Source of the DNA: Microbotryum violaceum
Lineage: Eukaryota
Direction of reading: 5' to 3'
DNA length: 64,000 bases
NCBI GenBank assembly: GCA_001244265.2
Contig: CDLV01000007.1
Location: 1,364,001-1,428,000 of the forward strand
Part shown: positions 44,216 through 64,000 of the stretch, piece by piece
How positions within the stretch are numbered: the first letter of the stretch is position 1
Layout: each line of letters starts with the position of its first letter
Notes under the pieces: generated by a model
Databases searched by the model: none
Told to the model about the DNA's origin: nothing
The model's input: only the letters and a program-made list of their open reading frames with translations
Translations under genes and position numbers: made by a program

Positions 44216-44492
44216 TGTCATTCGTATATGGTCATAAGGGTGTTCCGTCCTCATCTGATTATCGTTCCTGTTATGGTACTTAGGATTGAGCCTAGCGGCG
44301 TGTCATTCACTCCTTGGTCACTCAATCTCCCTACTTTACTAGTATCTATTCTCTTTCCTTATTAGCTTTACGCTTCACTTTCTAGCCTTCCGCGAGTCTG
44401 TCTCCTAGTCTCTGGCCACTCTGTTCTCGTCCCTGTTCATTGGACTGAGTCGTGGTCATCATCAGATTCCACTTGAGAACATTTCTGCGACA
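44216..44492. mobile_element. Solo LTR, 277 bp, TG...CA, 5-bp TSD ACTAC
   Basis: actac|TGTCA...CGACA|actac; closely similar to 57979-58261. Confidence 0.92.
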
Positions 44493-45689
44493 ACTACCAT
44501 GACCTTCGGTGCTCGACAAGTCAATATTCAGCTCGGCGTCCATTGCTTGACAAGGGAGGCGATGACCCGCTTGGACTGAGTTGGACGGTCGGCGGGGGCG
44601 TGGTCTGGCATGTAATCTGCCGCACATCAGCTAAGGAAAGTACATCAGGCACATGCAATATGCACAAAATATGTATTCAAGAAGTACTCACGTCGTTCTG
44701 GCGGTGCACGCGAATCCTGAGGGCCACGAAGTTTAGGCGCCCGTGCCACTGCATCTGCCGGAGAACCTGTCCCTCCAAGCGCGAGCCTCGACGGTGCAGA
44801 CAAGCGCACACAGATCACCTTCACGGAGGATGGTGTGTGCAAATCGCCCGGGGTGCCCATGGACAGTCACGGGGAGTGGCGTCGGAGCTCCTTCGGCGCA
44901 CGTGCGACCGGTAAAAAGCCCCTCTCGGACATCCGCATAGAATCGATTGTAATCGGGCAGGTCAAGAAGGTTCTCCCAAGCGGTTCGCCCCCTGTGCATT
45001 TTCCCAATGACTGCGAACACGCTTGTCAGCCCAGTCATCAGATCCTGGAGCCTACAAAAGCAAAAATTTAAATTACTACTTACACCTTGGGAAGATCAAC
45101 TGGTGGTGGATGAAGACCACCTGCGGCTTCGCCGTTAGGCTTGGCATGTTGACTTCGATCGCTGGCCGGGCCGGGTGAGGATGAGAAAGGGGAAGGAGTC
45201 CGGCTTCTGCAACGGATTCAGATACTATCGCAGAAAATATGTGAGCGCGGAAGTAAAGCCTTCCGATAGGTGAGGGTGCACGACGCCGAGAAGTCAGGAC
45301 CACAATGTAGAGCGAGTGATGAGAAAGCTATCAAGAGTAAACAGCCGCGCGGGAAGAAAGCTCCGCGCGCTCCCTAACTTAAACAGATCAAACTCCAATA
45401 CCAAAGTGACTAATGACTAAACGCACGCGCATCCGCGCAGATACCACAGGCACAGACACATATCAAATGACAGATACAAGAGGTACCACGGCTTACATTG
45501 ACCGTTCCCCAAGTTCCACGCTGTTGCCGCATGTTCAGAAAACAAGCATCGCAACTTGGACTCCATGCCCTGAGTCGCAAGCGCCTCGGACGTCACGAGC
45601 TCGAGGCCGATCTCACGGATCAAATGCTGCGGCTGCTGTCTTTCCGGAGGCAAGTGCTCGAGACTGAACACACAAACGTGGCTCAACCA

Positions 45690-47081
45690 CTCCAACATTC
45701 GTTTCACCTTCCCTTGCCTCACAATCATCGGTCGACACTTATTTAGTCCGGTCAAATTAGCTTCAGCGCCGCAAAACAATACGCACACACTGTCGGCTAG
45801 TAATTGTTCGACTGACATCGGAAGAATGTCCGTGAACGCGACAGTATTCTGACTGAAGATTAAGGTATTTCCCCGAGTACACTTTTGCTGCGCCTTTAGG
45901 TCGCCAAACTTTGTAATCTTGTAGACGAATTTATGGGTGCGGGCCCGGGCAGTGACCACTGCAACACGCCACACGGCTTCGCCGAACCACGCAAGCTTCG
46001 TAGGCTGAGCGGTCCTCGGCCTCAGCTATACTCTTGCGTCCGCCCGGCTCCAAGCTGAGATCCGAGCTGAGATTTGTGCCGAATGGAATCAGTACTTCAC
46101 AGATTCCAATTTTCGAGTTTTCTGTTGCTTGGTTTGCTCTGAGAGGGTCTTCGGGCACGAGGCACAGTGGGTTGCGAAGAGCGTTCTCAAGTGCAGAGAT
46201 CGCGGCATCCTGGAGGTGCTCAAAGATGTTCATTTGCGCTCTGACTTGCGGCCTACAACGTATGATTTCGAGGAATTGCGTGCTGCAATCACTGATCCGC
46301 GTGGTCTACATTGGCGGAACGACCTAGAGGGCCAGCCCATCTACTTCGCCACGGATGAGTCTTCCGTCCACTGTACGCTTTGCCCCGGCTGTTATCAAAG
46401 TCTCTTTACCTGTAAAGCTGCGCTTACTAAGCCCGCTCGTTCATTGAATAATCGTCTTTACCGGGCCATCGATCATCTGCCTCCGGATGTCAAGGGTTGT
46501 TTCTCAGGTGCAAGTCAGCTCGAACTGAGCCGTGTGTCGTCGTCAGCGCGGCTGTCATTGTTGGTCGCCGCTCGTCGTCTGTTCTGAGTCGCATTCTCTG
46601 CCAATGCCCTTTCCTCTCGTTCACAAATCTCCTTGCTCAGTTCTGCTTGACATGACTCCAATGTTTTGTGCCGGTAGACCGTGTGGCGGGGTACGCAATG
46701 CCGTCTCGGGACCAGGATGTCATTGGCTGTGCTTCGCTTGAAGATGTAGCCGCTCTCACATGCTGGACAACTCTCAGTGCATGAAGACAATAAGATACGC
46801 AAAAACAGTTCCTTAGCCCTTGATTGCCGAAAAGAGTAGCCTTGCAAGTTGTGAGTCTGACAAATAATCTGCAGTCGTTCCAAACGAAGTTTGACATTGG
46901 ACAAGACGAGCTGTCGCAATGAGCACTTGATCACTAGATCGTCGTCAAGCGAATGTGAGGCAACAAATCTGTTCGGTCCATGATAAGTGTACTGTACTTG
47001 TTCGCCATGTTGGTAAGAGCGACTGCCTCTTGTCAAGCCAAGTTCCGAGATGCTGTGTAATGACTTGGCGTCGGGAGGCAC
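45690..47081 (-). mobile_element. Helitron2/Helentron-like remnant (DUF6570-like region) with an internally inverted segment 45970-46536
   Basis: The minus strand gives QKCTRGNTLIFSQ...ILP...DSVCVLFCG...PMIVRQGKVKRMLEWL. The preceding part (AEW...CLVC...CPGC...PARSLNNRLY...LP..V...F..AS.LE) lies on the plus strand. Confidence 0.6.
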
Positions 47082-54610: not shown

Positions 54611-57319
54611 ATGGCTCCCGCTGTGATCTACCAGATCTCACCCATGGGCGTGGCCATGACGTGTTTTGCAGCGTTTGGTGGCTTCCTGTGAGCAGGTCCC
54701 TCTTCATCTCCTGACGGCACGACGGTTAGCGTGGCCACCGCACCGGCCTTGGGGGTGCGCGCTCGCTCAGCATTCGTCTTGAGCTCGGATATGCAGTCTG
54801 AATGCTGAAACTGACATGCACACCCTTCCTGAATTACGGGCCGCAGGTACGGCTACGACACCGGCAACATTTCCGGAGTTAAGTACGTCTTGGCCGTTTT
54901 GGCTTGGGGCGGAGCGGCGCGCTCAATTCTCATCTCGCGTGAACTGACGAGCTCGGACCCTCCTCACCACCATCTCCATAGAGCGATGCCATACTGGCTC
55001 ACCTTATTCGGTGACTTCCATCCCGAAAACTCTCCCGATCAACGCTTCGTCCTCTCGTCAGGTCACGACTCGCTCATCACCTCGATTCTCTCCGCTGGGT
55101 ACGCTGACTGTGCCTCCTGTCTTGGGGTGAGACTTCTTGAACATAACTGAGCTAGGTCTCGCATCGTTTCCCTCAGAACGTTCGTCGGTAAGCATACAAT
55201 CTTCGCTTCGTGATCCCTTGCCCGAAGGCTAACACGTGCTCGGCTGCTCGTTAGGGGCTTTGGGTGCGTTTCCCGTCGGTGATCGATTGGGGAGGCGTTG
55301 GGTAAATCCATCTAGCTTCTATGGGGTAATCACAACTCCTGAAGCAGTTCTTTTCCTATCTTTGTCACAGGGCATTATTGCGTACTTGGCGCTATTTTGC
55401 ATCGGCGTGGCTTTGCAAACGGGTGGCAAATCACTCACCCCTTTCGTCATCGGTCGTGTTTTCGCGGTCAGTTGTTCTGCTTCCGTGATTGCTTTTTAAG
55501 GGGGTGTCAACTGATCGCCACATGGATCCTCCTCGATACAGGGTCTTGGAGTCGTGAGTTGACAGTCATCGAACGATGCGCATGGCACTCACCCACTGAA
55601 CGAACGCTTTTCATCGCATCCCGTCGACAGGGCGGAACGTCCTGTCTGGTTCCCATGTACCAGAGCGAGTGCGCTCCCAAGTCAATCCGAGGCGCCATCG
55701 TTGCCGCGTATCAGCTGATGATCACCGTCGGCCTACTGGTTGTAAGCTTCGCTCGCTTGATCGTTAAAATCTGACTTCGCTTGCTAAGAAGGAAAGTGAT
55801 CTTTGCTAGGCTGCATGCATCGTCTACGGAACCAAGGATATCGCTTCTGCCGCCTGCTACCAGATCCCGATCGGCTTGCAGTTCATCTGGGCCGCCGTGC
55901 TCGGTGTCGGCTTGTTGTTCCTCCCCGAGTCCCCACGTTGGCTTTTGGCGCAGGGCCACAACGAGCGCGCGCAGCGCGCACTGTCGAGGATCCTTTCCGC
56001 CCCTGTCGATTCGGCTCAAGTTCACGAGGAATACGCGGAGATCGCCGCCAACCTTCATCACGAACGAGCGCTTGGATCTGCAAGTAAGTGAGAGATTTCC
56101 GCCCTGCCTGGAATCATCCTGGAACTAAATATTTGAACCTCGTGCCAGGCTACCTGGACACGTTCCGATCCGGTCCCGGCAAGAACGCGCTGCGCACCTG
56201 GACAGGTATCGGCCTCCAAGCTCTCCAGCAGCTTACCGGTATCAACTGTGAGCTTCTTCTCATTTGACTCTCTTGTGTTATAAAGCCATGCACGCTGATT
56301 CTTGGACTGCCGATCGTCGCTTCACTAAGTCATCTTCTACTACGGAACTACCTTCTTCCAGAATGCGGGAATTACGAACCCCTTTCTGATCACCGTCGCC
56401 ACCAATGTGTAAGCTTCATTATGTCGCCTCGGGGAAATGACAAAATGAATGAACACAACATTTTTGTTATCAGTGTCAATGTTTGCATGACGGTTCCCGG
56501 CATGTGGGCAGTCGATCGTGCTGGACGTCGTCCCTTGCTCTTGATTGGTGCTGCGGGCATGCTCGTTTCTCAATTCATCGTCGCCGCGGTCGGAGACGCC
56601 GTCGCAACGACCAACTTGGCCGGACAACATGTTCTCATCGCATTCGTATGCATTTTCATCGCCTTCTTCGCTGCGACTTGGGGTCCTCTGGCCTGGGTCG
56701 TGACGAGTGAGATCTACCCCAACTCGATCCGCGCGAGATGCATGTCTCTGTCGACGGCTTCCAACTGGCTGCTCAACTTCGTGATTGTGAGTCGTTGCAG
56801 TTGTTGTTCTAGCCGTCACTTGGTTTCATAAGCTGACACAGTGCACCACCATAGGGTTACTCTACGCCTTACCTAGTTAACAAAGTTCCGGGCTCTGCGG
56901 GGCTGCAGTCGAACGTGTTCTGGATTTGGGGAGGATGTAAGTTTCATCTACAGAACGATCGGTGAGCGCAAGCTTTCGATGAAACTGAGCATATCGTATG
57001 AATCGATAGGCTGCGTACTGTGCTTCATTTTCACCTACTTCTACATCCCCGAAACCAAGGTGAGAGCACACAATAGATCTCACGCCAGTCCTAAGAAGGT
57101 TTGGCTGATCGCTTGTGCATACTTCCGTATCGGTCACAGGGTTTGTCTCTGGAGCAAGTCGACATTTTATACCGAAACAGCTCGATCGTCAACTCGAATG
57201 CGTTCCGCAAGCGTATCCTGGACGAGAATATGCACGACGAGGACAAGGATGCTTACCTCGCCGCCAAGGGCGAGAGCGGCAAGACGGAGCACATTGAAAA
57301 ACGTGACCTCGGACCTTAG
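54611..57319 (+). CDS. MFS sugar porter (hexose transporter), many introns
   Basis: AFGGFL|YGYDTG, DRLGRR, PMYQSECAPKSIRG, PESPRWL, QQLTGIN, DRAGRR, WGP.AW...SEIYP..IR and PETKGLSLEQVD. Confidence 0.95.
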
Positions 57320-59857
57320 GGTTGCGAAAAGGTCTTGGTCTTGGTACAGATATACTTTTATTATTTTGATGGCACCGTACCTGTAGTGCCCGTCTTTCCC
57401 ACTACCTGTCCTTCGCTTCTCGCTTCAATTCGTGCCCTCCGAAGGCACACTTTAATTGTCGGGTCTGATATTTCGTTCCTTCACTAGCAATCATTTACAT
57501 TTACCGGAAATCAATAACACGAGGCTTCACGCAGATTCCTTTGTATTTAATTTAATCGGTGCATCTTCCTTCACTGCCCATTCCGATGTGCCCGGAATTG
57601 GGGGGAGGGGGGGGGGCAAGACTCGATCGGATTTTCCTGTGTAAGTGACGTATGGATCGAGACGCCAGCGACGAAACGAGCACGAGGCTGACGGCTTGTT
57701 GGTGGCACGCTGGTACGGGTTCCCTGAACTGGTCCTCGCACAGGCGTGGGTTACCTTGATCTAGGCTGCAGATTGTCTCATTTATTCGCATGTGCCATGA
57801 GAGTTCCCTAGCAATTCTCCCGATTTTTAAAAACGCGGATATATGCTGGAAAACTGTAAACTGCTTTCTTTCCTTTACTTAAAGGAATTGAAATGAAAAA
57901 AAAGTCGGGCGTCATAGAAAGATGATGAAACAAGTGATTCTGGCTACGCCGTTGAGGCAACCAGACGCCACCGCCCTCTGTCATTCATATATGGTCATAT
58001 GGGTTGTTCCATCCTTCATCTGATTATCGTTCCTATTATGGTACTTGGGATTGAGCCTAGCGGCGTTTCATTCACTCCTTAGTCACTCAATCTCCCTACT
58101 TTACTAGTCTCTATTATCTTTCTTTATTATCTTTACGCTTCACTTTTTAGCCTTCCGCGAGTCTGTCTCTTAGTCTCTGGCCACTCTGTTCTCGTTCGTC
58201 CCTGTTCATTGGACTGGGTCGTGGTCATCATCAGATTCCACTTGAGAACATTTCTGCGACACCCTCCGATCCCCCTGATCCCCTACACCCCCACCAGGTG
58301 GGACGACCGTGCGATGAGGATCGTCGAGGCGATTTTCGGATGGAAAGACCGAGTCTACCAAATCGTCGCGACCTTTGTCGACAGTCGCTTCGTCTCCACC
58401 TCGAATTCACCCCCCAAGGACGACGATGCTGACGACGCAAACACCGGGCCACCCGCGAAAAGGGGCAAGGATATGGGCTCTTCACTCAAGTCCAGCGTCA
58501 AGAAGGCCGTTGTTGAGGCTGTCTGCGAAGCAAGACTCGCCAACTCGCCCGACGACGACGTTCGACTCCTTTCCGACCTAACCACACAAATCGTGAGTCT
58601 ACACGACAAGGCCGCAAAGCAGGTACAAAGGCGGTGGACCTCTATGATCTAGCGTCGGTGGCAACGTCTACATTCCAAGATACCGTGCACATCATCCGCC
58701 ACAGCTCGCCGACGTGATCCATCGTCTGCTCGGCAAGATGGGAACGCTCGTCAGGTGTGAGCATCCGCGGCGAGCTGTGGCGAATGAGTGACTAAGGAGT
58801 GAATGAAACGCCGCTAGGCTCAATCCCAAGTACCATAATAGGAACGATAATCAGATGAAGGATGGAACAACCCATATGACCATATATGAATGACAGAGGG
58901 CGGTGGCGTCTGGTTGCCTCAACGGCGTAGCCAGAATCACTTGTTTCATCATCTTTCTATGACGCCCGACTTTTTTTTCATTTCAATTCCTTTAAGTAAA
59001 GGAAAGAAAGCAGTTTACAGTTTTCCAGCATATATCCGCGTTTTTAAAAATCGGGAGAATTGCTAGGGAACTCTCATGGCACATGCGAATAAATGAGACA
59101 ATCTGCAGCCTAGATCAAGGTAACCCACGCCTGTGCGAGGACCAGTTCAGGGAACCCGTACCAGCGTGCCACCAACAAGCCGTCAGCCTCGTGCTCGTTT
59201 CGTCGCTGGCGTCTCGATCCATACGTCACTTACACAGGAAAATCCGATCGAGTCTTGCCCCCCCCCCTCCCCCCAATTCCGGGCACATCGGAATGGGCAG
59301 TGAAGGAAGATGCACCGATTAAATTAAATACAAAGGAATCTGCGTGAAGCCTCGTGTTATTGATTTCCGGTAAATGTAAATGATTGCTAGTGAAGGAACG
59401 AAATATCAGACCCGACAATTAAAGTGTGCCTTCGGAGGGCACGAATTGAAGCGAGAAGCGAAGGACAGGTAGTGGGAAAGACGGGCACTACAGGTACGGT
59501 GCCATCAAAATAATAAAAGTATATCTGTACCAAGACCAAGACCTTTTCGCAACCCTAAGGTCCGAGGTCACGTTTTTCAATGTGCTCCGTCTTGCCGCTC
59601 TCGCCCTTGGCGGCGAGGTAAGCATCCTTGTCCTCGTCGTGCATATTCTCGTCCAGGATACGCTTGCGGAACGCATTCGAGTTGACGATCGAGCTGTTTC
59701 GGTATAAAATGTCGACTTGCTCCAGAGACAAACCCTGTGACCGATACGGAAGTATGCACAAGCGATCAGCCAAACCTTCTTAGGACTGGCGTGAGATCTA
59801 TTGTGTGCTCTCACCTTGGTTTCGGGGATGTAGAAGTAGGTGAAAATGAAGCACAGT
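57017..59857. repeat. 1,073-bp inverted duplication (arms 57017-58089 and 58785-59857; spacer 695 bp)
   Basis: Mirror ORFs and junction reading; coordinates sum to 116874 throughout and no differences were noticed by eye. The right arm is flanked by GTGGCGAATG at 58777-58786 and 59856-59865. Confidence 0.97.
57979..58261. mobile_element. Solo LTR, TG...CA, 5-bp TSD CCCTC
   Basis: ccctc|TGTCA...CGACA|ccctc; same family as 44216-44492. A partial inverted copy lies at 58785-58895. Confidence 0.92.
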
Positions 59858-61272
59858 GGCGAATGGACCCAGTATCATCCAGCTGACGAACCGTGTTCGT
59901 CTTCACTTCCATCGCCGGAGCAGGACTGGGCTGGTCCGGATCGCATCGGAACCCGCTACAGGACCGATGAGGCACTCCGACAAGTCGTCCAGGACGGTGC
60001 CAACGACTCCATCATCATTGGCATCGACCTGGGCACGAAATGTCCTATGGCGGTTTCGGCTACCTTCTTTGACCGAAAAGAGGTCCAGATTCAAGACGAC
60101 GTCGTCGTCTACGCGGATGCGCTGGACAAGCCGTTGAGGAAGGCGCAGAGCCTCGTTCGGAAGCTCTCTGCTGAACTGGCCGGCAGCCTACGATTCGGTC
60201 ACGCCAAACCCCCCGGCCACGCAACGACCTCCCTCTTGAGGGACAACGCCCTGCCACCTCGGCCGCCACGCTCGACGGTCCTGCTTCAACCCCCTCCGAC
60301 TCGAGTACGACCGAGGGCAACGACGCCGACGCACGCACTCGCGCCCAGCTCGCTCGTGGATCTTCCTCTCGCCTCCTCGGCGAGCCGGATCGCCAGGCCT
60401 GGGCGGCCAAGACCAATCTCTTATCCAAGGCTTCGAGAAGACGCTTCGTCGAGCAGGTGATGGAGTGCCAGGTTTGAGAACGATGGGTTCGTCCTCCGTT
60501 TCACGCCGCAGGGAGTCTTTTCGAACAACTTGTTCAAGCCGGATGCTGATTGTCGTATGGAAGCTCGTGCTTCAACCTTTTTGCAGAGAGTTCCCGCGAT
60601 GACAAGTTGAAGCAAGCGGACTTGCGCAAGGTCAAGACCGCAGAGGTCCTCCAACGAAAGGACATCCTGTCGCCGCGCCAACGTCCGGTGCTGGTCTTCC
60701 TTGGCGAGGGAGGCTCGAGTCGTGGAACACAGAAGGCGACGTATAGGACGAATGTTCTTTGCCGAGACCTCGTTCAAGAGTTCAACAGATTGCAAGAGCG
60801 AGGATTCGTCGTGGAGATCGTCTCGGTCGACGAATACAAAATCTCCTCAGTCTGCAGCGACCCACCGGCCGCGACGAGGTGACAGGGGAGCGATCCCGGT
60901 AGGTCTCTTCAGACCATTCTCGCAGTCGTGAACGAGTACCAAGGCGCTGCCGGATATGCTAACGACAGGGACTAACTTTTCAAGAATGGCCGAGCCCACG
61001 GGGCCCAGCATAATAACCTGCGGGTCATGCTGTGCGAGAAAGAATGCCGTCCGCCCATCCATCGCGACATGCTGACTGTGGGCTTACAAGTCGCCGCGTT
61101 CCGACAACACCCCTTCAGGTACCCCAAGGCCGGGAAGGACGAGGGCAAGCAGGACGAGAAGGGGCAGCAAGGCCACGGCAAAGGCCAAAGGGAGCAAGCA
61201 GGGACAAGGAAAGGGCAGGGACAAGGAGCGCGAAGAGGAAGCGAGGGAAGGGGGAGTTGGAGAAGCCTATAA
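58262..61272 (+). pseudogene. Fanzor (eukaryotic TnpB-like RNA-guided RuvC nuclease), intron-containing, disrupted by frameshifts, a stop and insertions
   Basis: In order: IIIGIDLG (60011-60034, RuvC-I), basic helix KTNLLSKASRRRF, VLVFLGEG, GFVVEIVSVDEYKISSVC (RuvC-II E 60832), Cys finger ...LRVMLCEKEC and PIHRD (RuvC-III D 61066). The N-terminal part probably starts upstream of the solo LTR (about 57910). Confidence 0.78.
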
Positions 61273-61560
61273 GCCGAGTCTCCTGAGCAGTGAAAGTGTG
61301 CTTGCCATCATCGTGCCAGTCGAAAAGCAGAGGGTCGGGTCGGTGCCAGGAACGATGGGTGATGCGGTCAATATGTACAGCCTGCTATCCAATTCGTTCA
61401 GTCACCTTCAGAAACAACGGTCGGAGGAGGTCGACGCTATCCCCGAAAACCGTTTCGAGCGTCAACTGGTTAGAGTAGATTGGGATGCATCACCTTGTTT
61501 TCATCTGCAGTGCCAATCCTGCTCATATCGATCCAATCTTTCTTTTTCACTGGTGCATTC
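61273..61560 (+). ncRNA. Candidate Fanzor omegaRNA scaffold
   Basis: Lies directly 3' of the nuclease stop. Nested complementary segments: TGAGCAG 61284-90 / CTGCTCA 61519-25; GGTGATGC 61358-65 / GCATCACC 61487-94; hairpin GACGCT..CGAAA..TTTCG.AGCGTC 61433-63. Boundaries and function are inferred only. Confidence 0.35.
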
Positions 61561-62293
61561 AACTCCTTCCCAGTTTGCTGAGCGACTCGTCACACCAAAC
61601 CATTCACATATAAATGCACGGTACCGCTTTTTCGTCCCGCCCTTTCAGGACGAGCCGCTTTGGCGAATCTGACCTCCTCTCCCCAAACTCATACCGCCGG
61701 TGACTGGACGTGGCGAGGTAATCGAGTTATCGACCCAAGGGATCATCAAATGACACATTTTCAATCCTATGAGCCCATTCGATGGGTTCCTCATCCTCCT
61801 CCGGCTGCATTCAGCAAGCACTACACGCCAACGCTTCACTCTTGACGCTTGCAGCCCCTAACCCCCATTCGGTGCGAGTCGCCGTCGCTGGCAGCCGTCC
61901 GGACTCTTTCGATCCTGCGCACGTGTGCATACCTGTGCATGTTTGCGCACATCGGTGCATAAGCATGCTTATTCATTCCTCTCTCATCCAATTTCCACTC
62001 GACGGGGTGTGAGGATGGGCGACGGTCTCTGTGAGGTGATGGATGATATGGAGTTGGGGGACTTGCGGAAATTGCTGGCGAGATGGAGATGGTATGCAGC
62101 AACCACATTTACCTATACCGGTCGATCAACGACTCAGACTCTGACCCCTTTTGAAGTATGACTTCTTATTATGTTTCTATGCGTCGGGGCAAGCGGTGTG
62201 GCCCCGTGTGGGACATGTGCCATGGCCCATGGGGAAGAGCGACCGAACGCAGGAAGCACGCTCGAGTCCGAGCAACCTGAAAATACCCGATAA

Positions 62294-62560
62294 GGCCGGG
62301 GCTTAGCAGGACCCGGGAAAGCTCAGCCGAAGGTGCGTCTCGAAAAACCCGTTTTTAGGCCGATTTGTACACCGAATATCCCTATATAAGGGGTGTACGT
62401 ATTCCGGTGTAAGACCAGACTATCGGATTGTGTTGAAAATTTACTCTACCGTAAAAAATCACGTCATGTAGCATATCACAAGGCCTAATGGGGCCCGTAA
62501 AGTACAAATCTCCGAGACACACATTGGGCTGAGCTTTCCCGGGTCCTGGCTTAGCCCAGC
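62294..62560. mobile_element. MITE-like/foldback element with about 35-bp inverted repeats
   Basis: aggacccgggaaagctcagcc (62308-62328) and ggctgagctttcccgggtcct (62527-62547), with imperfect outward extension; non-coding interior. Confidence 0.5.
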
Positions 62561-63293
62561 TTAGCCTGAGTCAGCTGAGTTAGGACAAAAAAGCCCATGT
62601 CAGACGCCCATGTGAAATAAGGCCCTTTTCTGATTTTTTGTCCAGATTTTACACCCTCTTTTGGCCCCAGAATGGCGAATTTTCACATGTGCCTCGAAAC
62701 ATTATCAAAAGTCACTCGAAAGTCATTTAAGGCGGGCGTCGATTCGGCCGGTGTCGCGTGTGTCCGTCCAGGCATCAAATCCCAAATCCCATGTATTGAC
62801 CCCTTGAAATCTCGCGAGCGTATAACCGACACCGTCGTTTTCCTCTCGCCACGCAGAGTTCATCTACTATGCCTCGAGCGATGAAGTTTAGCGTAGTAAA
62901 CTGAAAGAGCCCTCCGGATCCCTGCCAATTCCCTGGGCGGCGGCGGACTGGTCTGGACTTCTGTTGGACGGCGCGGCGGCGTGGGGATCCCCAGTCTCGA
63001 CTCTCCTCTGTTGTCCTCTGTTCCTTCGCGCTTTGTGTCTCCTCTATAATCGCTCGACCGCCCAGTCCATCCTTGACCACTCCCTTCTCTTACATTCCCA
63101 CACTCTTTTACCTCTGATCGCACCAGTTTTCGGGCCTTCGGGAATCGTTCGTGCTTTCCAGTCCGACTCTCTGGCACCGCTACTCTCGCACGAACGATCG
63201 CTTGCTCCGTTCGTCGCCGGGCGCCGCGCCGAGCCCAGTCGGCTCCCTACCCTGTCCTATCGTCGAGCCAAAAGTCGAATACCCACTAAGCTG

Positions 63294-64000
63294 ATGGGAA
63301 AGAACAAATCCTTTTGGACACCGTTCCTGCTCACCGCGTTGTTGTGTGTGGCTATGCAGTCGCCCGTGGTCGAGGCCGATGTTGTCCCAGTCAGAGCTTC
63401 GGATGCGCACGCGCACGCGCAGTATCACGTGCAGTCTCGCGCCCCTGCACCGACGGGTTACTCTGCCTTAGTCGCTTTCGGTGCATCCTACGTCGGTAAG
63501 TACTACGGCGAAGCCCAGATCAAGTTTATCAATTGGTCGTCTCTGACTGTTGCCAATTTTGATGATCACCAGATAATGCCCACCCCCGAGCGGATGCATA
63601 CAAAAGCTCAATGAGAAATTACTACCCTTACTCCTCCGCGGGAGGTCGCTACTCGAACGGGCCGGTCGGAGTGGAGTACATGGTTGCTTCGGGCACCAGT
63701 CCCACACTCAAACAGTATGGGAAAAGTGCCGTGAAACTGTTTGATTGTCAGTTGGGAATTGGCATAAGCGGGAGAAGAAAATCTTGGCGCATGGCACGGA
63801 CCCTCATCTGGTTTCTCTGAATTGATTTGGCAGACGCCTATGGCGGCTCGGTCATTAGGAATGGATTGGGCGGAGCGTCCAGCTCTTATCCGGCAACAAG
63901 AGATCAGGTCAGTGTTGTGGCCGGCCGTGCACCATGAATGTGCATGCTCTGAAGTTTCCATATGGTCTCGTCTCACCCAGGTCGCCGCGTACATCACTGA
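63294..64000 (+). CDS. Secreted SGNH/GDSL-like hydrolase, paralog of 37360-39363, runs off the window
   Basis: Signal peptide, GYSALVAFGASYV|DNAH, GRYSNGPVGVEYMV and KLFD|YAYGGSVI; intron positions match the paralog. Confidence 0.85.

What the first reader, a model, noticed from the sequence alone, without database searches (positions are those of the whole stretch)
58262..61272. Intron-containing Fanzor/TnpB-like RNA-guided nuclease gene in a basidiomycete TE island
Seen: across three frames on the + strand, in order, GIDLG (60011-60034), a basic helix, VFLGEG, VDEYKISSVC (60826-60855), a Cys-rich finger split by a GTAGGT...GCTAAC...CAG intron (about 60899-60968), and CEKEC...HRD (61033-61068). 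Known: D(GIDxG)-E(vdEy.tS..C)-zinc finger-D(xRD) is the RuvC layout of TnpB and Fanzor1, the eukaryotic OMEGA nucleases. Inference: this is a decayed Fanzor1 copy, with frameshifts, a TAA at 60973, a solo LTR and a 1-kb insertion. All three putative catalytic residues are retained, so intact family members may exist elsewhere in the genome. No transposase is adjacent, so the host element is unidentified and may be a new association.
Basis: partly seen in the sequence, partly recalled or inferred. Interest (0 to 1): 0.9.

Follow-up and report, generated by a model that had tools for sequence, protein, structure and literature searches.

The report
Decayed Fanzor-like nuclease gene remnant
This stretch is the broken remnant of a TnpB/Fanzor-type (RNA-guided-nuclease-like) gene in an anther-smut fungus; the gene family is real and not described in the papers searched, but this copy is dead.

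Summary
They belong to a real family. The 60550-60882 frame is 100% identical to a Microbotryum lychnidis-dioicae protein model and about 90% identical to 820-957-aa models in sister species. An exhaustive HMMER search found only 17 relatives among 1.84 billion representatives; those looked up by name are from Microbotryum, plus one Cystobasidium fragment.

A 33%-identical full-length relative, P0013, passes Pfam's Cas12f1-like_TNB (TnpB zinc-ribbon/RuvC-III) threshold at 32.5 vs 26.3 bits. NCBIfam guided_TnpB, PHROG, ESM-Atlas and hhalign against E. coli InsQ-type TnpBs (E 8.5e-5; reversed control 0.45) agree. The family has the Fanzor-type shifted RuvC-II glutamate (VDEY).

The window copy is a fossil. 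It is 5'-truncated and carries a 283-bp solo LTR with a 5-bp target duplication. Codons 321-663 are replaced by an inverted duplicate of the adjacent 1,079 bp of host DNA. It also has at least five frameshifts, a lost zinc-finger Cys, a TAA and a 6-codon deletion in RuvC-III.

Fanzor1 clade placement, guide RNA, element ends and partner transposase remain untested. This is a new member of a known kind, of moderate interest.

The parts
56268..57319 (+). 3' part of a host sugar-transporter gene (context). Its last ~300 bp lie inside the left arm of the inverted repeat.
   Evidence: Pfam Sugar_tr E 3.3e-33 for ORF 56268-56831. The C-terminal frame runs to 57319.
57017..58095 (+). Left (native) arm of the inverted duplication. 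It holds the transporter 3' end, the intergenic DNA, the first retained coding pieces of the Fanzor-like gene and the first 117 bp of the solo LTR.
   Evidence: the repeat finder gives 1079-nt arms. There are 2 mismatches, both in the innermost 6 nt. Contigs have about 2x depth and stop exactly at 57017.
57611..57978 (+). First retained coding pieces, equivalent to P0002 aa 128-154: GGQDSIGFS at 57611-57637, AWVTLI ending at 57760 and YAVEATRRHRP at 57945-57977. They are interrupted by a 183-bp multi-copy insertion at 57761-57943. Residues 1-127 of the family protein are absent.
   Evidence: tblastn. A paralogous contig joins 57760 to 57944. No match to aa 1-127 anywhere in the window.
57979..58261 (.). 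Solo LTR (283 bp, TG...CA) inserted in the coding sequence. The 5-bp target-site duplication CCCTC is at 57974-57978 and 58262-58266.
   Evidence: termini, flanks, 93% copy at 44216-44492. (joint 57973->58262 in 3 of 4 runs; depth up to about 30x that of single-copy flanks).
58262..58711 (+). Coding for P0002 aa 155-304 (PPIPLIPYTP...HIIRHSSP), with one frameshift near 58628-58631.
   Evidence: tblastn: 78% then 89% identity in two frames.
58720..58788 (-). Short inverted piece coding aa 298-320 (IRHSSPRMLTPDERSHLAEQT) on the minus strand. aa 298-304 are thus present twice, in opposite orientations.
   Evidence: tblastn E 1e-6 on the minus strand. Contigs of X1, X5 and X7 span 58495-58814/58837.
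58779..59857 (-). Right arm: the inverted duplicate of 57017-58095. It stands where codons 321-663 of the family protein should be.
   Evidence: No match to aa 321-663 in the window. The junction is bridged and depth is 2x in runs of three studies.
59918..60486 (+). Exon with RuvC-I (IIIGIDLG 60011-60034; D at 60026-60028) and the helical insertion. Frameshifts lie at about 60232 and about 60467.
   Evidence: tblastn to P0002 aa 664-838: 91% up to 60235, then another frame. Paralogous contigs differ by 1-nt gaps at 60226/60230/60233.
60487..60586 (+). Intron 1 (100 nt, GT...AG).
   Evidence: The public model P0001 reads ...GLRTM|ESSRDD... across it, and P0002 is collinear. Sequence.
60587..60898 (+). 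Exon with the RuvC-II region: VFLGEG at 60694-60711 (canonical-E position), VDEYKISSVC at 60826-60855 (alternative E at 60832-60834) and the first zinc-finger pair. A 1-nt loss and a Cys->Gly change (CSDPTC -> CSDPTG in the shifted frame) lie near 60861-60870.
   Evidence: PTCRNEVTGERSR vs PTGRDEVTGERSR. Family alignments.
60899..60968 (+).
   Evidence: Splicing restores the frame into LFKNGRAHG... and keeps the RSR-to-LRV spacing within 2 residues of the continuous P0013 protein. It is not confirmed by RNA. One contig of a run guessed to be RNA spans it unspliced.
60969..61272 (+). Last exon: TAA at 60973-60975, second zinc-finger pair CEKEC at 61033-61047 and RuvC-III HRD at 61060-61068. An 18-nt deletion follows, removing IVAARN of HRDIVAARNM. 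There is a frameshift near 61170 in the basic/acidic tail.
   Evidence: Alignment to P0007. Indels of the paralogue at 61174-61180.
61273..61700 (+). 3' flank still shared with the paralogue, so part of the element. It is where a guide (omega) RNA would be expected. The element end was not reached.
   Evidence: A paralogous contig aligns over 61239-61533 and on past a 44-nt skip, and depth stays at about 2x to 61700. There is no Rfam match and no unusual fold, z +0.87.

Best explanation
Window 57611-61272 (and on to at least 61700) is a dead, rearranged copy of a multi-copy, intron-containing gene family of Microbotryum. One fragment of the family is also seen in Cystobasidium. The roughly 950-1050-aa product ends in a TnpB/Fanzor-type RuvC nuclease domain. 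That domain has RuvC-I GID(L/P)G, no conserved glutamate at the canonical RuvC-II position (VFVGxG), a conserved alternative glutamate 43 residues downstream in VDEY-TS-x-x-C, a C4 zinc ribbon and RuvC-III HRDxxAxxN. By homology, intact members would work like Fanzor/TnpB: a guide RNA transcribed from the 3' end of the element directs Mg-dependent RuvC cleavage of matching DNA beside a short target-adjacent motif, which helps the element persist. That step is inferred, not shown. The window copy cannot work. It lacks residues 1-127. It carries a 183-bp insertion and a solo LTR in the coding sequence. Codons 321-663 are replaced by an inverted duplicate of the neighbouring 1,079 bp (sugar-transporter 3' end plus the element's own 5' part). 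It has at least five frameshifts, has lost one zinc-finger cysteine, and has an in-frame TAA and a 6-codon deletion in RuvC-III. The same rearranged locus is present under two organism labels, so it is an old, fixed fossil.
For: Family membership of the window copy:
- 8 of 231 candidates scored E<=0.01, with 100% identity to P0001 and about 90% to P0002/P0003/P0005.

TnpB homology of the family:
- The HMMER search with P0002 found 17 proteins at E<=1e-3 among 1,835,955,588, including complete models P0010 (35% identity) and P0013 (33%, E 1.5e-58).
- Pfam PF07282 Cas12f1-like_TNB: P0013 scores 32.5 bits (cut-off 26.3, E 1e-7), P0010 22.1 bits and P0022 22.0 bits.
- P0005 and P0007 each match complementary halves of the model at 12.2 bits.
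- PF07282 is matched by 5 of 16 family members, the next-best family (DUF460) by 2, and the remaining 7 listed families by one member each.
- NCBIfam guided_TnpB is matched by 5 of 16 members, best E 8.2e-6. The matches are collinear: the GIDLG region maps to model positions 195-237, VDEY to 308-359 and HRD to 335-387 of 389.
- phrog_506 gives E 5e-6.
- hhalign of the family C-terminal profile against a profile of 80 InsQ-type TnpB sequences (E. coli InsQ plus 79 translated loci; 1 of 80 loci dropped as too short) gives E 8.5e-5 over 61 columns (TS..C, zinc finger, RD/AD..A.NI). The extended alignment puts IGIDPG on InsQ VGLDAG. The reversed-profile control gives E 0.45.
- ESM Atlas for P0013 664-862: feature score 0.96, with 22 of 30 hits in the PF07282 set. 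All 10 structural rows are clusters that carry PF07282, with TM 0.50-0.61.
- Three fungal-looking metagenome contigs encode intron-bearing relatives of the same region. One passes PF07282 at 37.1 bits.

Motif rules:
- Bao & Jurka's D-X(125,275)-[TS][TS]-X-X-C4-X(5,50)-RD (passage) is met by P0002 (238 residues between D and TS) and P0010 (241).
- Jiang et al. describe loss of the canonical RuvC-II E and an alternative E about 45 residues on (passages). Here the spacing is 43, and E785 is invariant in 5 of 5 sequences including Cystobasidium.

Lesions.

The rearrangement is real. Contigs of X1, X5 and X7 (three studies, two organism labels) bridge 58778|58779. The arm contig stops at 57017/59857 with about 2x depth.
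Against: - The window's own subfamily (P0002, P0005, P0007) does not reach Pfam's threshold on its own, because every gene model lacks one of the two last exons.
- No model of the RuvC-I half (OrfB_IS605) matches any member. The RuvC-I alignment to InsQ has low posterior confidence.
- No sequence-level match to any solved Fanzor, TnpB or Cas12 chain, by single sequence or by profile.
- The hhalign probability is only 60%.
- The AlphaFold2 model was too poor (mean pLDDT 40) to test the fold, and Foldseek on it found nothing at E<=0.001.
- No guide RNA, terminal repeats, target-site duplication or transposase was identified for the element.
- Nuclease activity is untested.
Confidence: 0.88

Rival explanations
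1. The family is no longer transposon cargo. It is a lineage-specific, host-retained (domesticated) TnpB-derived gene family, and the window holds a pseudogenised paralogue of a host gene.
For: No transposase, terminal repeat or target duplication of the element itself was found in the window. The roughly 600-aa N-terminal region is conserved across lineages only 28-35% identical. The catalytic D, E and D are kept in the divergent complete models.
Against: There are many near-identical models on different chromosomes of M. saponariae: clusters of 8 and 6 member sequences plus further clusters. Truncated and fragmentary models are frequent. This copy is decayed and hit by an LTR. At least four divergent sublineages occur within one genus. 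This is the pattern of a mobile, amplifying family.
Confidence: 0.1
2. The motifs belong to some other RNase H-fold or unrelated protein, and the resemblance to TnpB is a chance run of short motifs.
For: There is no hit to solved Fanzor/TnpB structures by sequence. No OrfB_IS605 match. The only sub-threshold RNase H-type extras are DUF460 (2 of 16 members) and RuvX (1 of 16). The AF2 model is uninformative.
Against: One member passes PF07282 above the curated cut-off. The same TnpB models recur in three HMM libraries, while all but one of the other listed families are matched by a single member. The profile-profile E is 8.5e-5 against 0.45 for the reversed control. The Atlas feature and structure neighbours are all TNB-bearing clusters. 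The motif order and spacing fit the published Fanzor rule.
Confidence: 0.04
3. The 1,079-nt inverted repeat is an assembly artefact (a fold-back chimera), so the gene is less damaged than it looks.
For: The arms are near-perfectly identical, with 2 mismatches, both in the innermost 6 nt. Such palindromes are a known artefact class (my own knowledge).
Against: Independent short-read contigs of three studies under two organism labels bridge the inner junction (58495-58837 with 0 differences in X1 and X5; 58495-58814 with 2 differences in X7). The arm has twice the depth of its flanks in each run (115 vs about 55-65; 424 vs about 215-270; 38 vs about 20-26). The arm contig ends exactly at the outer boundary, as expected at a true branch. 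One of these runs may be the window's own source, but X7 is a different organism label and study.
Confidence: 0.04

Closest known systems
Fanzor1 (eukaryotic TnpB homologues, e.g. Spizellomyces punctatus SpuFz1; Bao & Jurka 2013; Saito et al. 2023; Jiang et al. 2023)
   Same: It is a eukaryotic, intron-containing, multi-copy gene. It has a C-terminal RuvC with D ... TS-x-x-C4 zinc ribbon ... RD at the published spacing. The canonical RuvC-II glutamate is not conserved, and there is an alternative glutamate 43 residues downstream. It has a long N-terminal region and a basic KRAKK patch. NLS function is my inference only.
   Different: No detectable sequence match to solved Fanzor chains. Clade placement is untested. 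The D of RuvC-I sits at about residue 650-700, so some 450-500 residues precede the usual TnpB core. They have no recognisable family: the Atlas gives only leads below 0.9. The first zinc-finger pair is C-x4-C rather than C-x2-C. No associated transposase or guide RNA is known. The hosts are Pucciniomycotina; no paper in the searched library pairs Fanzor with Basidiomycota or Microbotryum.
Bacterial/archaeal TnpB (IS200/IS605, IS607; e.g. E. coli InsQ, ISDra2 TnpB)
   Same: It is homologous over the TS..C, zinc ribbon and RuvC-III segment (PF07282, NF040570, hhalign E 8.5e-5). The RuvC-I GIDxG aligns collinearly.
   Different: It is about 2.5 times longer, has introns and is eukaryotic. InsQ has the canonical RuvC-II E (VIEDL); this family does not. 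No TnpA is present.
Fanzor2 / IS607-type TnpB of giant viruses and yeasts
   Same: The nearest Atlas feature clusters are TNB-domain proteins of Nucleocytoviricota. There is a weak IS607_TnpB match (E 0.003). It has the same shifted glutamate.
   Different: Fanzor2 proteins are compact, mostly intronless and sit in IS607-like elements with a serine recombinase (Jiang et al. passages, and my own knowledge). None of this applies here.
Cas12f
   Same: It shares the TNB/RuvC-III domain family (the Pfam model name).
   Different: There is no CRISPR array, the host is eukaryotic and the N-terminus is unrelated.

Membership tests
TnpB/Fanzor superfamily | C-terminal zinc-ribbon + RuvC-III (TNB) domain recognised by curated profiles | tested here: met
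   P0013 scores 32.5 bits on PF07282 against a cut-off of 26.3. P0010 and P0022 score 22 bits. NF040570 gives E 8e-6. hhalign against InsQ-type TnpBs gives E 8.5e-5, with a reversed control at 0.45. The window's own subfamily reaches only 12.2 bits per half, because its gene models are split. It is tied to P0013 by HMMER E 1.5e-58.
TnpB/Fanzor superfamily | RuvC-I aspartate in a hydrophobic-GID-x-G strand, 125-275 residues before [TS][TS]-x-x-C (Bao & Jurka rule) | tested here: met
   The D is nearly invariant across 10 family sequences and invariant in 5 of 5. The spacing is 238 (P0002) and 241 (P0010). It is 297 in P0013, which carries a roughly 100-aa acidic insert. In the window the D codon is at 60026-60028. 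Alignment of this strand to InsQ VGLDAG is collinear but of low confidence. Pfam OrfB_IS605 does not match.
TnpB/Fanzor superfamily | C4 zinc finger followed after 5-50 residues by RD | tested here: met
   P0013 has C-x4-C ... C-x2-C then KLPVH-RD. P0010 has C-x4-C ... C-x3-C then QPPVH-RD. The window copy has lost the second Cys (C->G) and 6 codons after HRD.
Fanzor (either clade) | Canonical RuvC-II glutamate replaced, with an alternative conserved glutamate about 45 residues downstream | tested here: met
   At the canonical position the family has VFVG followed by E, K, V or D, which is not conserved. The E of VDE(Y/D) lies 43 residues on and is invariant in 5 of 5 sequences including Cystobasidium. 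The rule is taken from passages of Jiang et al..
Fanzor (either clade) | RuvC/TnpB three-dimensional fold with D, E and D converging on one site | tested here: inconclusive
   AlphaFold2 of P0010 with 16 sequences gave a mean pLDDT of 40. Foldseek against the PDB found no match at E<=0.001. The Atlas's own low-confidence model of P0013 aligns to 10 TNB-bearing clusters at TM 0.50-0.61. This is a lead, not a test.
Fanzor1 clade specifically | Phylogenetic placement within the Fz1 branch | not tested
   No reference Fanzor1 or Fanzor2 sequences could be obtained. Introns and the long N-terminus fit Fz1 better than Fz2, by description only.
Fanzor / OMEGA system | Guide (omega/f) RNA encoded at the 3' end of the element | tested here: inconclusive
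   There is no Rfam match in 56000-64000. The fold of 61069-61700 is no more stable than shuffles, z +0.87. No run on record as RNA holds the stretch. Only one copy's DNA was available, so conservation and covariation could not be examined.
Fanzor / OMEGA system | Residence in a transposon with defined ends and, often, a partner transposase | not testable with these tools
   No whole genome is held. The window copy is 5'-truncated, and its 3' end lies beyond 61700. There is no transposase within the window flanks.
Fanzor / OMEGA system | RNA-guided, TAM-dependent DNA cleavage | not testable with these tools
   This needs biochemistry.
Solo LTR of an LTR retrotransposon (the 283-bp insert) | TG...CA termini, 4-6-bp target-site duplication, multi-copy, empty site in a paralogue | tested here: met
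   TGTCA...GCGACA termini, with CCCTC on both sides. A 93% copy lies at 44216-44492. The empty-site joint 57973->58262 is seen in 3 of 4 runs, and depth reaches about 30x. No internal retrotransposon genes were sought.

The most novel reading that the evidence does not exclude
The Microbotryum/Cystobasidium proteins form a deep, previously undescribed Fanzor branch confined to Pucciniomycotina. In it, a roughly 450-500-residue domain of unknown fold precedes the TnpB core. Intact copies (such as P0010 and P0013 in M. saponariae) would still be active RNA-guided nucleases riding a transposon type not yet linked to Fanzors.
Probability: 0.3. Interest if true: 0.6.

Novelty: new member of a known kind. 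Interest (0 to 1): 0.4.

Why it matters
Fanzors are the eukaryotic RNA-guided nucleases, of interest both for transposon biology and as compact genome editors. The passages I read place them mainly in early-diverging fungi, yeasts, protists, some animals and giant viruses. This finding documents a very divergent family in basidiomycete smut fungi. An exhaustive search of 1.84 billion representatives found only 17 members, and standard profiles barely see it. The family has a large unexplained N-terminal region and apparently intact copies in M. saponariae that could be tested.

The window copy itself is only a fossil. Its value is as a pointer to the family, and as a dated example of a complex inverted duplication with identical arms kept under two organism labels.

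Tried and rejected
- **Whole genome:** none is held, so no genome-wide copy census or end definition was possible.
- **The search of earlier findings:** A second call sent in the same turn was returned for a missing field and not repeated.
- **Pfam on the window's own frames:** no family.
- **PDB sequence searches:** P0007, P0013 and the family profile gave no Fanzor, TnpB or Cas12 chain.
- **AlphaFold2 of P0010 with a 16-row alignment:** mean pLDDT 40. Foldseek against the PDB on it found nothing at E<=0.001, and the top rows were sigma factors at TM<0.1. This is uninformative, not evidence against the fold. The second fold job was not spent, because no deeper alignment could be built.
- **Third word-based homologue search (P0013 664-862):** found only itself. 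The second (P0007 560-719) found only known members.
- **tblastn of P0013 against plasmids:** no match.
- **First metagenome scan:** 19 pattern hits, none confirmed.
- **hhalign against single InsQ:** only E 0.024. This improved once a profile of 80 InsQ-type sequences was built.
- **The genome search with PF07282:** returned only InsQ and gave no loci for the control genomes.
- **Rfam:** no match in 56000-64000 at E<=1.
- **RNA fold of 61069-61700:** z +0.87.
- **Expression:** no RNA holder is listed. X16, guessed to be RNA, has low-depth contigs, one of which spans putative intron 2 unspliced. No splice joint was reported. Nothing can be concluded about expression.
- **Combined profile:** an attempt to build one profile holding both last exons from P0002 plus P0007 failed, because MAFFT aligned the two exons on each other.
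- **Upstream ORF of the metagenome loci:** by eye it looked like a PIN/XPG-type nuclease, but Pfam gave no match at E<=0.01, so the idea was dropped.
- **Literature:** no paper holds Fanzor with Microbotryum or with Basidiomycota. The one paper with TnpB and Microbotryum mentions them in unrelated places. The six-term search was badly framed and gave nothing usable. Supplementary tables of Saito 2023 and Jiang 2023 list host taxa and could already include Microbotryum, but they could not be seen.

Full report
**Observation.**
- IIIGIDLG at 60011-60034.
- VFLGEG at 60694-60711.
- VDEYKISSVC at 60826-60855.
- GTAGGT from 60899, GCTAAC at 60958-60963 and CAG at 60966-60968.
- TAA at 60973-60975.
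- CEKEC at 61033-47 and HRD at 61060-68.

They sit in different reading frames. None of the window's own frames matches a Pfam family, so the motifs alone would not have settled anything.

**The frames belong to a real protein family.**
The 110-aa frame 60550-60882 was searched against 5.8 billion proteins. Of 231 candidates, 8 scored E<=0.01:
- A 261-aa model of Microbotryum lychnidis-dioicae is 100% identical. This is P0001, evidently the annotation of this very locus.
- A 222-aa model of M. silenes-dioicae (P0006) carries the same lesions.
- Models of 448-957 aa in M. saponariae, M. silenes-dioicae and M. lychnidis-dioicae are about 90% identical (P0002, P0003, P0004, P0005, P0007).

P0007 skips the preceding exon part (RGF...VDEY...GERSR). 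However, it carries the last exon...LRVMLCEKECRPPIHRDIVAARNM....

An exhaustive HMMER search with P0002 found only 17 proteins at E<=1e-3 among 1.84 billion cluster representatives. Among them are divergent, complete models:
- P0009: M. intermedium, 53% identity.
- P0010: M. saponariae, 35%.
- P0013: M. saponariae, 33%, E 1.5e-58.

One fragment, P0022, has a cluster mate (P0023) from Cystobasidium minutum. On present data the family is therefore confined to Pucciniomycotina. P0021, a repeat protein with a 37-residue match, was treated as unrelated. It was left out of the alignments, along with the short or locus-derived models P0001, P0006, P0008, P0017 and P0018.

**Is the family TnpB/Fanzor-like?**
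*Profile evidence:*
- Pfam's Cas12f1-like_TNB model (PF07282, the TnpB zinc ribbon plus RuvC-III) is passed by P0013 at 32.5 bits against a curated 26.3 (E 1e-7).
- P0010 and P0022 approach the threshold at 22 bits.
- In the window's own subfamily, P0005 matches model positions 14-35 and P0007 positions 36-60, each at 12.2 bits. These are the two halves that their split gene models retain.
- Across the 16-member alignment, PF07282 is matched by 5 members and DUF460 by 2. The remaining 7 listed families are matched by one member each.
- NCBIfam's guided_TnpB model is likewise matched by 5 of 16.
- The partial matches to the 389-position TnpB model are collinear. The GIDLG region maps to 195-237, VDEY to 308-359 and HRD to 335-387.
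- PHROG 506, annotated transposase, gives E 5e-6.

*Profile-profile test.* I fetched E. coli InsQ and 80 InsQ-type loci at 59-100% identity. One locus was dropped as too short, leaving a profile of 80 sequences including InsQ itself. This profile was compared with the family's C-terminal profile. hhalign gave E 8.5e-5 (probability 60%) over 61 columns. It aligned VDEY-TSSVC, the zinc finger and HRDLIAARNI with InsQ's VPPAY-TSQRC, zinc finger and NADVNGARNI. With a permissive extension, the family's IGIDPG falls on InsQ's RuvC-I VGLDAG, though at low confidence. A column-reversed control gave E 0.45.

*Other support:*
- The ESM Atlas gave a feature score of 0.96 for P0013 664-862, with 22 of 30 neighbours in the PF07282 set.
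- Its structural neighbours comprised 10 rows, all clusters carrying PF07282, at TM 0.50-0.61.
- Three fungal-looking metagenome contigs encode intron-bearing relatives of the same segment. One passes PF07282 at 37.1 bits.

*Against.* No solved Fanzor, TnpB or Cas12 chain is matched by sequence or by profile. The AlphaFold2 model was too poor to test the fold.

**Fanzor-type features.**
Bao & Jurka's rule is D-X(125,275)-[TS][TS]-X-X-C4 zinc finger-X(5,50)-RD (passage read).
- It is met with spacings of 238 (P0002) and 241 (P0010) between the D and the TS.
- P0013 exceeds the range at 297, because of an acidic insert.
- The RD follows the last zinc-finger Cys after 5 residues in P0010 and P0013.

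Jiang et al. report that Fanzors have lost the canonical RuvC-II glutamate and use another about 45 residues downstream (passages read). Here the canonical position reads VFVG followed by E, K, V or D. The glutamate of VDE(Y/D), 43 residues on, is invariant in 5 of 5 sequences, including the Cystobasidium one.

Two introns interrupt the RuvC region:
- 60487-60586 is supported by the public model P0001 and by collinearity with P0002.

Neither intron is confirmed by RNA. Whether the family belongs to the Fz1 branch was not tested.

**Anatomy of the window copy.**
- Residues 1-127 of the family protein are absent.
- Coding similarity starts at 57611 (GGQDSIGFS), 290 bp after the stop of a sugar-transporter gene (Pfam Sugar_tr E 3e-33).
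- A 183-bp multi-copy segment (57761-57943) splits AWVTLI|YAVEAT.
- A 283-bp solo LTR (57979-58261) splits RRHRP|PIPLIPY. It has TG..CA ends, a CCCTC target duplication and a 93% copy at 44216-44492.
- Coding runs on to residue 304 at 58711, with one frameshift.
- Residues 298-320 then appear on the minus strand (58788-58720).
- Next comes an inverted copy (58779-59857) of 57017-58095. That segment comprises the transporter's 3' end, the intergenic DNA, the element's first pieces and 117 bp of the LTR.
- Residues 321-663 are missing.
- The gene resumes at residue 664 (59921). This part has frameshifts near 60232, 60467, 60864 and 61170, and a Cys->Gly change in the first zinc-finger pair. It also has the TAA at 60973 and an 18-nt deletion that removes IVAARN after HRD.

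**The rearrangement is real and old.**
- Contigs of three runs from three studies under two organism labels bridge the inner junction. X1 and X5 cover 58495-58837 with 0 differences. X7 covers 58495-58814 with 2.
- The arm contig ends exactly at 57017/59857.
- The arm has about twice the depth of its flanks in each run.
- The same runs hold a paralogous copy at about 90-93% identity. It lacks the 183-bp and 288-bp insertions.
- The paralogue differs by two 1-nt gaps at 60226-60233, where the window's frame shifts.
- It also lacks 19 nt at 60956-60974, around the TAA.
- Depth of about 2x over 59959-61700 suggests only about two copies of this part in organism A. The element extends beyond 61700.

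**Context.**
The window is not a TE island. ORFs of 180 aa or more include glutamine amidotransferase, NDT80, AdoHcy hydrolase, MOSC and the sugar transporter. One DUF6570 frame lies near the second LTR copy. No transposase lies next to the remnant. Because the copy is truncated at its 5' end and its 3' end was not reached, this says nothing about the element's partner.

**Comparison and novelty.**
The closest known kind is Fanzor, with Fz1-like traits: introns, a long N-terminus and multiple copies. The differences are:
- extreme divergence;
- a 450-500-residue N-terminal region with no recognisable family (the Atlas gives only leads below 0.9, to DUF8286, Aq_aa04 and Cpf1 REC2 clusters);
- a C-x4-C first zinc-finger pair;
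- a host range in Pucciniomycotina.

No paper in the searched library pairs Fanzor with Microbotryum or Basidiomycota. The fungal hosts in Bao & Jurka's table, in the passage shown, are Spizellomyces, Rhizopus, Allomyces, Phycomyces, Mucor and yeasts (Ashbya, Eremothecium, Saccharomyces). [quoted passage not shown] The large surveys' supplementary tables could not be opened and may already list these genes. P0013 already carries a precomputed PF07282 label in public databases.

I therefore rate this a new member of a known kind. However, the copy in hand is a fossil, and the system-level features (guide RNA, element ends, activity) remain open.

Noticed in passing
window 57017-58095 and 58779-59857: A 1,079-nt inverted duplication with a 683-nt spacer, 1,073 nt of it perfectly identical. 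It includes the 3' end of a sugar-transporter gene. In run X7 (a second organism label) the arm contig differs from the window at 5 sites plus 3 gaps, yet still collapses to one contig at 2x depth. This suggests the two arms stay identical to each other within each lineage, through gene conversion as in palindromes. Read-through from the transporter gene could form a long hairpin RNA; this is speculation.
   Followed up: partly
window 58698-58788: A small fold-back at the inner junction. Codons for IRHSSP occur on both strands (58698-58711 on +, 58768-58785 on -), with 8 nt of filler (58712-58719). The join of this piece to the arm shows a few bases of microhomology. The pattern looks like replication template switching.
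   Followed up: partly
window 57761-57943 (and its inverted copy 58931-59113): A 183-bp segment absent from the paralogous copy, with 3 nt shared at the joint. Contig depth is very high in some runs, and contigs break at 57760, 57827-57829, 57901 and 57944. It is probably a small multi-copy element or a mosaic of repeats. It was not classified.
   Followed up: partly
window 44216-44492 and 45417-46025 (-): A second copy (93%) of the 283-bp LTR. A frame with Pfam DUF6570 (E 1.5e-11) lies 1 kb away. This could be another transposon remnant.
   Followed up: no
L083 2114-6666; L084 856-4914; L085 1-3468: Three fungal-looking metagenome contigs carry intron-bearing Fanzor-like genes (GIDxG ... VDEYLTSSxC-x2-C ... 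C-x2-C ... HRD). The last exon of L085 passes PF07282 at 37.1 bits. In all three, the RuvC part is preceded on the same strand by a conserved, collinear ORF set with no Pfam match, starting MGI..(G/W) and containing SDSDL/RDSDL. L083 also has a piggyBac-type transposase (PF13843, E 5e-47) about 1 kb upstream on the other strand. L084 has a WD40-repeat gene downstream.
   Followed up: partly
window 56900-61700, run tables: Among differences between the window and the paralogous or other-strain contigs, C>T and G>A are the commonest classes (for example 20 and 16 of 105 in X1). This would fit the TCG hypermutation reported for Pucciniomycotina repeats (passage in PMC12730594). Sequence context was not examined.
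   Followed up: no
P0002 about 489-497; P0009, P0010 and P0019 at the aligned place: A conserved basic patch (PSKRAKKAA, SKRAKKQ, TKVRKV, SKLRKV) sits in the otherwise variable linker before the TnpB-like core. It looks like a nuclear localisation signal; this is inference only.
   Followed up: no
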